The notes beneath the pieces are model-generated. The model saw only the letters and a program-made list of their open reading frames with translations, had not been told where the DNA came from and searched no databases. Positions 15,742 through 28,650 of a stretch of DNA of 64,000 nt are shown one piece after another. Source of the stretch: Octopus vulgaris (Eukaryota); contig OX597830.1 of NCBI GenBank assembly GCA_951406725.2, forward strand, positions 73,904,001 to 73,968,000, in the 5' to 3' direction. Each line of letters opens with the position of its first letter. Position 1 is the stretch's first letter. The position numbers were made by a program, and so were the translations under genes.

Positions 15742-15985
15742 GCCCTTTAAAAGCCTAGCCAGGCTCATGGGACCAGTTTCCCGGTTTTTATAGCGTATGC
15801 GTTCCCTAGCTGGACGGGACGCCAGTCCATCGCAGCGTTACTCATTTTTGCTATCTGAGTGGACTGGAGCAACGTGAAATGAAGTGTTTTGCTCAAGAAC
15901 ACAACGCGTCGCCCGGTCCAGAAATCGAAACCACAATCTTGCGATCATGATGCTGACACCCTAGCCACTAAGCCACGCGCCTCCA
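15742..15985 (-). mobile_element. SINE family C (tRNA head, Nin-like CAGTCCACTCAG domain)
   Basis: Minus strand TGGAGGCGCGTGGCTTAGTGG...GGTTTCGATTTCTGGACCGGGCG; intact relative of 26865-27438. Confidence 0.88.
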
Positions 15986-26864: not shown

Positions 26865-27438
26865 ACAGCCGTTTTGATGCCACCAGTTTCCCGGTTTCTA
26901 TGGCGTATATATTCCCCCGCCTGCACGAGACGCCGGTCCGTTGTGGGATTACTCGTTGTAGCCAGCTGATTGGACTGGAGCAATGTGAAATGAAGCGTTC
27001 TGATCAAGAACACGACGCGTCGCCCGGTTCAGGGATCGAAAGAGTCCCGCGTCATTATTTTTCGTCACTACCTCCCCGTGCCGGGAGTGGGCAAATTGAG
27101 CGCCTGCTGTCTTCTTTAAATGTGGTAGCCGTTTCGCAAGCTCCCTCTCTGGAATCGAACCCTGATTACTCGTTACCCGTTGCCACCACGGTCGGCACTT
27201 ACCGGGCCGTCGACAGTTGATAGGGCGGAACTCGCGGGGGACCCGTCGCGCGAAGGCTAGATCGTACTAACACTTATCCAGAGTCATCAAAATCGAAAGG
27301 TGTGAAGCCGCTGCACGCGTCGACCCGTGCGCGGATCGCGGTGGCTGCTGCGACGTCCAGTACGCGTCGGCCTTAGTCTAATATTTGCGCCGCAACCAAT
27401 GCGGAAGGCCGACCGAATCACTAAGCTACGCGCCTCCA
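26865..27438 (-). mobile_element. SINE family C containing an 18S rRNA insert
   Basis: 26880-27040 and 27419-27438 align to 15771-15929 and 15966-15985. Confidence 0.88.
27036..27417 (-). pseudogene. 18S rRNA fragment (5' domain, ~380 bp)
   Basis: Minus strand reads CCCTATCAACT...AATCAGGGTTCGATTCCAGAGAGGGAGC...ACGGCTACCACAT...GCAGGCGC...CCCACTCCCGGCACGGGGAGGTAGTGACGAAAAAATAA, which are universal eukaryotic SSU rRNA motifs. Isolated, with several substitutions in conserved positions. Confidence 0.93.
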
Positions 27439-27742
27439 CTACTTTAAACTACGGGAAAAGAACCAAGAACAACATTATTCAATGGATCCTATTGTAAGAA
27501 AGCAGAGACGGGATTTGAAGGACACATGCTTGCTTTATCTAGCTGATCAAGCGTCTAAATAGTAGCTTCCAAATTTGCTCGAAATGTGCATTATTTATAT
27601 ACCAGGCATTGATTCCGTTTAATCGACCTTTATATATGTGACATAATGTCAATGTTTAGAAATTAATGTCTGTATTAGGGATGTGGATTAACTGAAGAGA
27701 AACAGCAGTGGTGGTGGTGGTGGTGGTGGTAGTGGTGGTGGC

Positions 27743-27786
<44 letters not shown>

Positions 27787-27831
27787 CAGCAGCAGCAGCA
27801 GCAGCAACAGCAGTAGTAACAGCAGCAGTAA

Positions 27832-27863
<32 letters not shown>

Positions 27864-27877
27864 GCAGCAGTAGCAGC

Positions 27878-27917
<40 letters not shown>

Positions 27918-28650
27918 CCTGAAATGCTTCTGAATAGGAATATCGAAATTTGACCGCTGAAGGTAATTTTTTTTTTCAATCCTTTTCTTTTCTTTTCTCT
28001 TTTTTTTTCTTTTTTTTTTCTCCATACAGGAATCGAACTTTCGACCCGCTGCTTTATACTAAATAGTGTAAAGAATTGGCATGCAATGATTTACGATAGA
28101 CTGACCAGTGGTTTTTCTTTGCAATTGAATATGCCAAGGAAGCTACCGATTCGTCAAGAAAATTTATTGCGCTGCCAAAATCAGAATGAGTTTTTCCTCT
28201 CAGAATTCTTGAAATATTGAGTTTTCTAATAATAGCCTAATCTATAATGTCTATAATGTTTGCGTTCTGTCGAATTTAAAGTTATAATCGGCATATTTTG
28301 GACAAGAGAGAAATGCCAGCTTTGACACTTGCTAGTTTCCTACAAATGTACAACACTTCCTCGTGCGGCTTCCTTTACTAAACAATGGACGCCATTATTC
28401 TTCAATTTCCACATGATAGCAGGTGGTGTCTGTGTGTGTGTGTGTGTGTGTACGTGCGTGCAAGTGTGTGTGTGTGCTTGTGTTGCATTCGTTATGTATT
28501 CGAACAGTGACTGATTGATACACAGAGGATCAACGGGAGATGATATATAATTAGCTCTTCCATTGGCTGTCAGCCAGACATTGTTGTTCTTGTTTTCTTC
28601 CTTCGTGTTCTTGCTGTCGTTGTTGTTGTTGCTGTTGTTGTTGTTGTTGC

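What the first reader, a model, noticed from the sequence alone, without database searches (positions are those of the whole stretch)
26865..27438. 18S rRNA fragment replacing part of a SINE tRNA head
Seen: compared with the intact copy at 15742-15985, about 35 bp between the A and B boxes is replaced by ~380 bp of 18S rRNA in the same (minus) orientation. One junction has microhomology TCGAAA (27036-27041), shared by the SINE B box and the rRNA. The SINE resumes at CACTAAGCTACGCGCCTCCA, and there is no TSD around the insert. Inference: a double template switch (SINE to rRNA to SINE) during reverse transcription, or RNA-templated break repair. If multi-copy, it would be an 18S-containing SINE lineage; 5S- and 28S-derived SINEs are known, while 18S ones are rare.
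Basis: partly seen in the sequence, partly recalled or inferred. Interest (0 to 1): 0.75.

Follow-up and report, generated by a model that had tools for sequence, protein, structure and literature searches.

The report
Ribosomal RNA patch inside a SINE
A 384-letter piece of the animal's own 18S ribosomal RNA sequence replaces about 35 letters of one broken copy of a short jumping element, likely as a patch at a DNA break; it was found only once and similar scars occur elsewhere in this genome, so it looks ordinary rather than a new element family.

Summary
The chimera is real. Window 27419-27036 (minus strand) is host 18S nt 342-746 (8% substitutions, one 19-nt deletion). It replaces 35 nt between the A and B boxes of a tRNA-type SINE, in the same sense. 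Contigs under three organism labels bridge the head/rRNA junction; no listed piece bridged the B-box junction.

Corrections: the exact microhomology is TCGA (4 nt), not TCGAAA, and the SINE has also lost its 3' tail and target-site duplication. Both junction patterns match once in the genome, so no 18S-SINE family was found.

It is one of a class: 6 of 48 other dispersed 18S/28S fragments also split a SINE, close to the SINEs' 8-9% share of DNA (p about 0.2). In all six the host SINE is more diverged than the insert, significantly in three. A duplication-flanked 28S-SINE chimera shows equal ages. This favours patching of an existing SINE copy (about 0.6) over a double template switch (about 0.3); for this locus alone the ages do not decide.

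Five of the six are in sense orientation (p=0.11), which is unexplained. An earlier scan note reports a similar rDNA patch elsewhere in this genome.

The parts
27419..27439 (-). SINE 5' end, nt 1-21 (tRNA-type head up to the A box); the junction lies within SINE nt 21-24 because of partial likeness to the 18S
   Evidence: 20 of 21 match both consensus sets; junction triplet
27036..27419 (-). Host 18S rRNA fragment, nt 342-746 of a ~2.65-kb 18S; 31 substitutions in 382 sites, 19-nt deletion near 27260, 2-nt and 1-nt deletions, 1-nt insertion
27036..27041 (-). B-box junction: TCGA (27039-27036) shared exactly by SINE and 18S; 27041 shared, 27040 SINE-type
   Evidence: exact sharing of 4 nt or more occurs in 1.7% of random position pairs
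26882..27041 (-). SINE body from the B box to a broken 3' end (about SINE nt 57-215); closest to an older subfamily; last ~35 nt, tail and target-site duplication missing
   Evidence: break bridged by contigs of X1, X19, X6
27289..27292 (-). T4 run inside the insert, a predicted Pol III stop; a second B-box-like word GGTTCGATTCC lies at 27161-27151 within the 18S piece
   Evidence: function not tested
15742..15985 (-). Intact comparison SINE copy (younger subfamily), not part of the chimera

Best explanation
A 384-nt piece of host 18S sequence was likely captured as a patch at a double-strand break inside an already inserted SINE copy, replacing 32-35 nt of the SINE through microhomology-assisted end joining. 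Shown: the structure, host origin, short deletion, 1-4 nt shared junction bases, lack of duplication, one match per junction pattern, and presence under three organism labels. Inferred: the order of events (SINE first, patch later) and the repair pathway. The donor could be a cDNA of rRNA or an rDNA fragment; this is not resolved. The copy is predicted to be dead: A and B boxes lie about 380 nt apart, a T4 run interrupts the insert, and the 3' tail seen on other copies is gone through a separate lesion.
For: Junction features match class 2 templated insertions (microdeletion, microhomology, no duplication, no poly(A); PMC5110952). Dispersed rRNA fragments are common here: 21 other 18S and 27 28S fragments had testable flanks. 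6 of these 48 split a SINE, against 8.4-9.0% expected from SINE coverage (p=0.21-0.26), so SINEs are not detectably preferred. At non-CpG sites the host SINE is more diverged than the insert in 6 of 6 (ratios 1.45-7.5), significantly in 3 (L069 p=1e-5, L170 p=0.005, L079 p=0.012). The 28S+SINE chimera L162, flanked by an 11-bp duplication and so inserted in one event, gives 1.11. One of the six (L165) is antisense. No insertion hotspot was seen at either junction of this SINE.
Against: For this locus the age test does not decide: 7.9% (22/278) for the insert versus 11.2% (16/143) for the SINE at non-CpG sites, p=0.28; 9.4% private changes versus 7.9%, p=0.61, on the conservative count. SINE divergence can be inflated by an imperfect subfamily consensus. 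5 of 6 other split SINEs (6 of 7 with this one) are in sense orientation (p=0.11 and 0.06), which break repair does not predict. L162 shows that SINE-to-rRNA joining during insertion does occur in this genome. The missing 3' end removes the target-site evidence.
Confidence: 0.6

Rival explanations
1. Double template switch in one retrotransposition event: the LINE reverse transcriptase copies the SINE RNA to the B box, jumps to 18S rRNA at TCGA, copies about 405 nt, jumps back to SINE RNA at the A box and finishes at nt 1; the tail and duplication were lost later.
For: Same sense; ages not distinguishable; 4-nt microhomology; sense excess among split SINEs; L162 is a duplication-flanked 28S-SINE chimera and L081 an 18S piece fused to a SINE tail; L086 has long shared stretches at both junctions and similar ages; tripartite chimeras and sense-biased 28S/L1 chimeras are documented (PMC2104539; PMC13174262).
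Against: Needs a return to the same kind of RNA plus a separate later loss of the tail. No duplication flanks the element (60 of 60 shuffles reach the best score). In 3 of 6 sister cases the SINE is significantly older than the insert. No enrichment in SINEs. In the cited chimeras the foreign RNA is added at the 5' side, not inside the element.
Confidence: 0.3
2. A SINE-targeting LINE endonuclease nicked this SINE at a preferred site and the rRNA was reverse-transcribed in trans at the nick, which would explain the sense bias.
For: A different SINE family in this genome forms head-less tandem units restarting at its nt 53 (16 of 38 tails in held DNA), in line with earlier scan notes.
Against: For this SINE family only 5 heads break at nt 21, all internal deletions or variants; tail-to-A-box and tail-to-B-box patterns give 3 and 1 matches, the latter with 1 control match. 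Only one tail type was tested. The sister inserts sit at varied positions in several families.
Confidence: 0.06
3. The locus is a member or founder of an 18S-containing SINE family.
For: A box and B-box core are retained.
Against: One match for each junction pattern; no other held 18S fragment shares the 19-nt deletion; tail lost; internal T4.
Confidence: 0.02
4. Assembly artefact joining rDNA and SINE reads.
For: The B-box junction was not bridged by any listed contig.
Against: The insert is 8% diverged from host rDNA, with changes that organism C's rDNA-like contigs do not share; the other junction and the broken 3' end are bridged under three organism labels.
Confidence: 0.02

Closest known systems
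Class 2 templated sequence insertions at double-strand breaks (Onozawa and Aplan 2016, PMC5110952; parts 1-2 of 4 read)
   Same: Distant-donor insert of a few hundred nt, small target deletion, microhomology, no target-site duplication, no poly(A); donor locus intact.
   Different: Here the donor is 18S, the target is a SINE copy, and the insert is old and shared under three organism labels rather than a human polymorphism; the empty allele was not seen.
Template-switch chimeras of LINE machinery, including tripartite ones (Gogvadze 2007, PMC2104539, part 1 of 5 read; PMC4476161 and PMC13174262, passages read)
   Same: Parts joined in the same sense; rRNA fragments of similar size (28S/L1: median 269 nt, 83% sense).
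   Different: Those are flanked by direct repeats and carry the foreign RNA 5' of the retroelement; here the rRNA sits inside one SINE with a deletion and no flanking repeat is left. L162 in this genome does fit that class.
rRNA-derived SINEs: SINE28 (PMC4994717, passages read) and 5S-headed SINE3/AmnSINE1 (as cited there)
   Same: rRNA sequence joined to SINE-like parts.
   Different: Those are multi-copy with tails and often duplications; this was found once, is tail-less and looks dead.

Membership tests
Class 2 templated sequence insertion | Insert templated from a distant, intact locus | tested here: met
   Host 18S nt 342-746 in the array on G000:C20
Class 2 templated sequence insertion | No target-site duplication, no poly(A) | tested here: met
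Class 2 templated sequence insertion | Microdeletion and microhomology at junctions | tested here: met
   35-nt deletion; 4 nt exact at one junction, 1 nt exact at the other
Class 2 templated sequence insertion | Target existed before the insert (empty allele or age gap) | tested here: inconclusive
   Age ratio 1.41, p=0.28; organism C gave no bridging contig
Template-switch (bi/tripartite) retro-chimera | All parts in the same sense | tested here: met
Template-switch (bi/tripartite) retro-chimera | One target-site duplication around the whole element | tested here: not met
   Best match 6 nt, reached by 60 of 60 shuffles; the 3' end is deleted, so secondary loss is possible
Template-switch (bi/tripartite) retro-chimera | Equal age of all parts | tested here: inconclusive
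   7.9% vs 11.2% non-CpG, p=0.28
rRNA-derived SINE family | Multiple dispersed copies sharing the junctions | tested here: not met
   1 match each
rRNA-derived SINE family | Intact 3' tail | tested here: not met
   SINE match ends at 26882
rRNA-derived SINE family | Pol III transcription of the whole element | not tested
   No RNA data laid; spacing about 380 nt and internal T4 argue against

The most novel reading that the evidence does not exclude
This genome carries a recurrent class of SINE-rRNA-SINE chimeras made at the RNA level: reverse transcriptase leaves a SINE RNA, copies a stretch of rRNA and returns to the SINE 10-58 nt further on. Six sense-oriented cases in three SINE families were seen in a small sample. 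Such out-and-back switching would be a direct route by which SINEs gain new internal modules.
Probability: 0.2. Interest if true: 0.6.

Novelty: new member of a known kind. Interest (0 to 1): 0.27.

Why it matters
As a single dead scar it matters little, though it is a usable orthology marker for these species. Its value is as a pointer: this genome holds many dispersed rRNA fragments, several inside SINEs, which allow a count-based test of repair patching against reverse-transcriptase switching. If the sense bias held up genome-wide with equal ages, it would show how SINEs acquire middle modules.

Tried and rejected
Empty allele in organism C (runs X9, X10, X11): no listed piece bridged 27419 and 27565-27700 had no cover; one contig with an intact SINE head at 27419 could be a paralogue; inconclusive. 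B-box junction in public contigs: not among the 32 pieces shown; absence is no evidence. Remainder of the SINE 3' end elsewhere in the window or a repeat at the break: not found; the first ~36 nt past the break had no other match. Insertion hotspot at the A-box or B-box junction: not found. Copying from another 18S pseudogene: no held fragment shares the 19-nt deletion. tRNA genes in the window: none. Pfam on 17 of 63 long frames: one weak Sec62 match below cut-off. Literature searches listed no paper on an 18S-derived SINE family or a SINE-18S-SINE chimera; the library lacks most subscription papers and no supplements were read, where such loci could be tabulated. Look-ups of earlier findings by sequence, by words and near this place returned nothing.

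Full report
Observation. Rfam places a eukaryotic SSU rRNA match on the minus strand. A search of the window's own genome with 27036-27420 gave 41 matches from 40 of 74 candidates scored, led by a tandem rDNA array whose 18S is about 2.65 kb. Window 27419-27036 is 18S nt 342-746, with 31 substitutions in 382 sites and a 19-nt deletion. At 8 of the 10 substituted sites between 27312 and 27374, rDNA-like contigs of organism C show the host base, so those changes arose in the insert. SINE nt 1-21 lie at 27439-27419 and the body resumes at 27041; 35 nt are missing against two consensus sets of 30 copies each. The animal is probably an octopus: this rests on earlier scan notes and on my recall that cephalopod 18S is expanded, not on a test here.

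Junctions. At the B box the SINE reads TTTCGA and host 18S TGTCGA, so 4 nt are shared exactly; random pairs of positions share 4 or more in 1.7% of trials. At the A box one G is shared exactly and the break can lie anywhere in SINE nt 21-24. There is no duplication around the insert. The SINE stops at 26882, about 35 nt short of the family's end, and no duplication flanks the whole element, although many other copies show one by eye.

Reality and spread. Contigs of X1 (27281-27516), X2 (27231-27700), X19 (27231-27614, organism D) and X6 (27386-27700, organism B) run from unique flank through the head into the 18S piece; X1, X19 and X6 cross the broken 3' end. X1 or X2 may be the assembly's own sample; B and D are other labels. 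No listed piece crossed the B-box junction, and organism C was uninformative. Both junction patterns match once in the genome, and only this locus spans the B-box junction among 40 of 388 candidates scored. The pattern searches allow little divergence, so very old sister copies could be missed.

Context. I fetched the other dispersed fragments. For 18S I tested 22 loci including this one, leaving out rDNA units and long pieces that reach the end of the fetched stretch (L002-L017, L019, L067, L068, L080) and one array-end match that was not fetched. For one 28S segment I fetched 28 of 40 matches (12 looked like unit copies) and tested 27. L145-L147 share flanks and are not fully independent. 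Of the 48 others, 6 split a SINE with collinear flanks: L069, L078, L079, L086 (10-58 nt of SINE between the two alignment ends) and L170 (short duplication) in sense, and L165 in antisense. Four SINE references cover 8.4% of 276 kb of background with 20 nt to spare on each side (9.0% in the window; a lower bound), so 6 of 48 is not an excess (p=0.21-0.26). The sense count is 5 of 6 (p=0.11), or 6 of 7 with this locus (p=0.06).

Age test. If SINE and rRNA parts entered together they should be equally diverged. At non-CpG sites the SINE/insert ratio is 7.5 (L069), 4.4 (L079), 3.2 (L170), 2.0 (L078), 1.7 (L086), 1.45 (L165) and 1.41 here; the first three are significant, this locus is not (p=0.28). 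L162, a 28S piece fused to the 5' end of a full-length SINE inside an 11-bp duplication, gives 1.11 and serves as a single positive control. This copy is nearest an older subfamily (20/159 differences, members 4-11%), and an imperfect consensus can inflate the SINE side.

Mechanism. The class as a whole reads as patches landing in pre-existing SINEs at about the chance rate, with the junction marks of class 2 templated insertions (PMC5110952, parts 1-2 of 4 read). I give that about 0.6 for this locus. A double template switch keeps about 0.3: the sense and ages fit, L162 and L081 show SINE-rRNA joining in this genome, and sense-biased 28S/L1 and tripartite chimeras are documented (PMC13174262 passages; PMC2104539 part 1 of 5; PMC4476161 passages). 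Earlier notes describe a LINE that targets a SINE head here; the head-less units I found restart at nt 53 of a different family (16 of 38 tails), and no hotspot appeared at this SINE's junctions. The copy is predicted dead: boxes about 380 nt apart, T4 at 27292-27289, tail gone.

Comparison and verdict. It works like a class 2 templated insertion, and membership is met on three features and open on the fourth. It is not a member of an rRNA-derived SINE family such as SINE28 (PMC4994717 passages; PMC10946416 passages). Seven searches (listings and abstract starts) showed no 18S-derived SINE family or SINE-18S-SINE chimera, within a library that lacks most subscription papers; no supplements were read. 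Verdict: real, found once, most likely an ordinary repair scar; the only open lead is the weak sense bias.

Noticed in passing
L162 (G000:C18:40121012-40126350), block 2501-2857 and flanks: A 357-nt 28S fragment fused in sense to the 5' end of a full-length SINE, the pair flanked by an 11-bp duplication inside another repeat: a clean bipartite rRNA-SINE chimera with equal ages of both parts.
   Followed up: partly
L086 1333-1730, L079 1501-1633, L081 1484-1626: Three 18S fragments end within about 20 nt of each other near the 3' tail of the same SINE family; L086 shares long stretches with the SINE at both junctions and is the best candidate for an out-and-back switch.
   Followed up: partly
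L069 1470-1697, L078 1491-1642, L170 2501-2810, L165 2501-2881: Further rRNA fragments splitting SINE copies; L170 sits just after an A box with a short duplication, L165 is antisense with about 24 nt of filler.
   Followed up: yes
L065 1350-1787; L075; L158; L160: Dispersed inserts made of several rRNA segments; L065 joins a 28S piece upstream of an 18S piece in the same sense.
   Followed up: no
L169 2501-2699, L154 2501-2879, L156, L161: 28S fragments abutting the end of a SINE in antisense orientation; could be twin-priming chimeras or chance neighbours.
   Followed up: no
L074 about 2100-2400 and other held loci: Head-less tandem units of another SINE family restarting at its nt 53 (16 of 38 tails).
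   Followed up: partly
L141, L142, L143: Three copies of this SINE family share a 9-nt deletion right after nt 21, between two GTG words.
   Followed up: no
L170, L165, L162: These 28S inserts show heavy CpG loss (28-40% of CpG sites) while the 18S insert of this window does not (9%), suggesting different methylation histories.
   Followed up: no
window 27709-27918: Compound trinucleotide microsatellite (GTG, AGT, AGC units) 270 nt from the SINE head.
   Followed up: no
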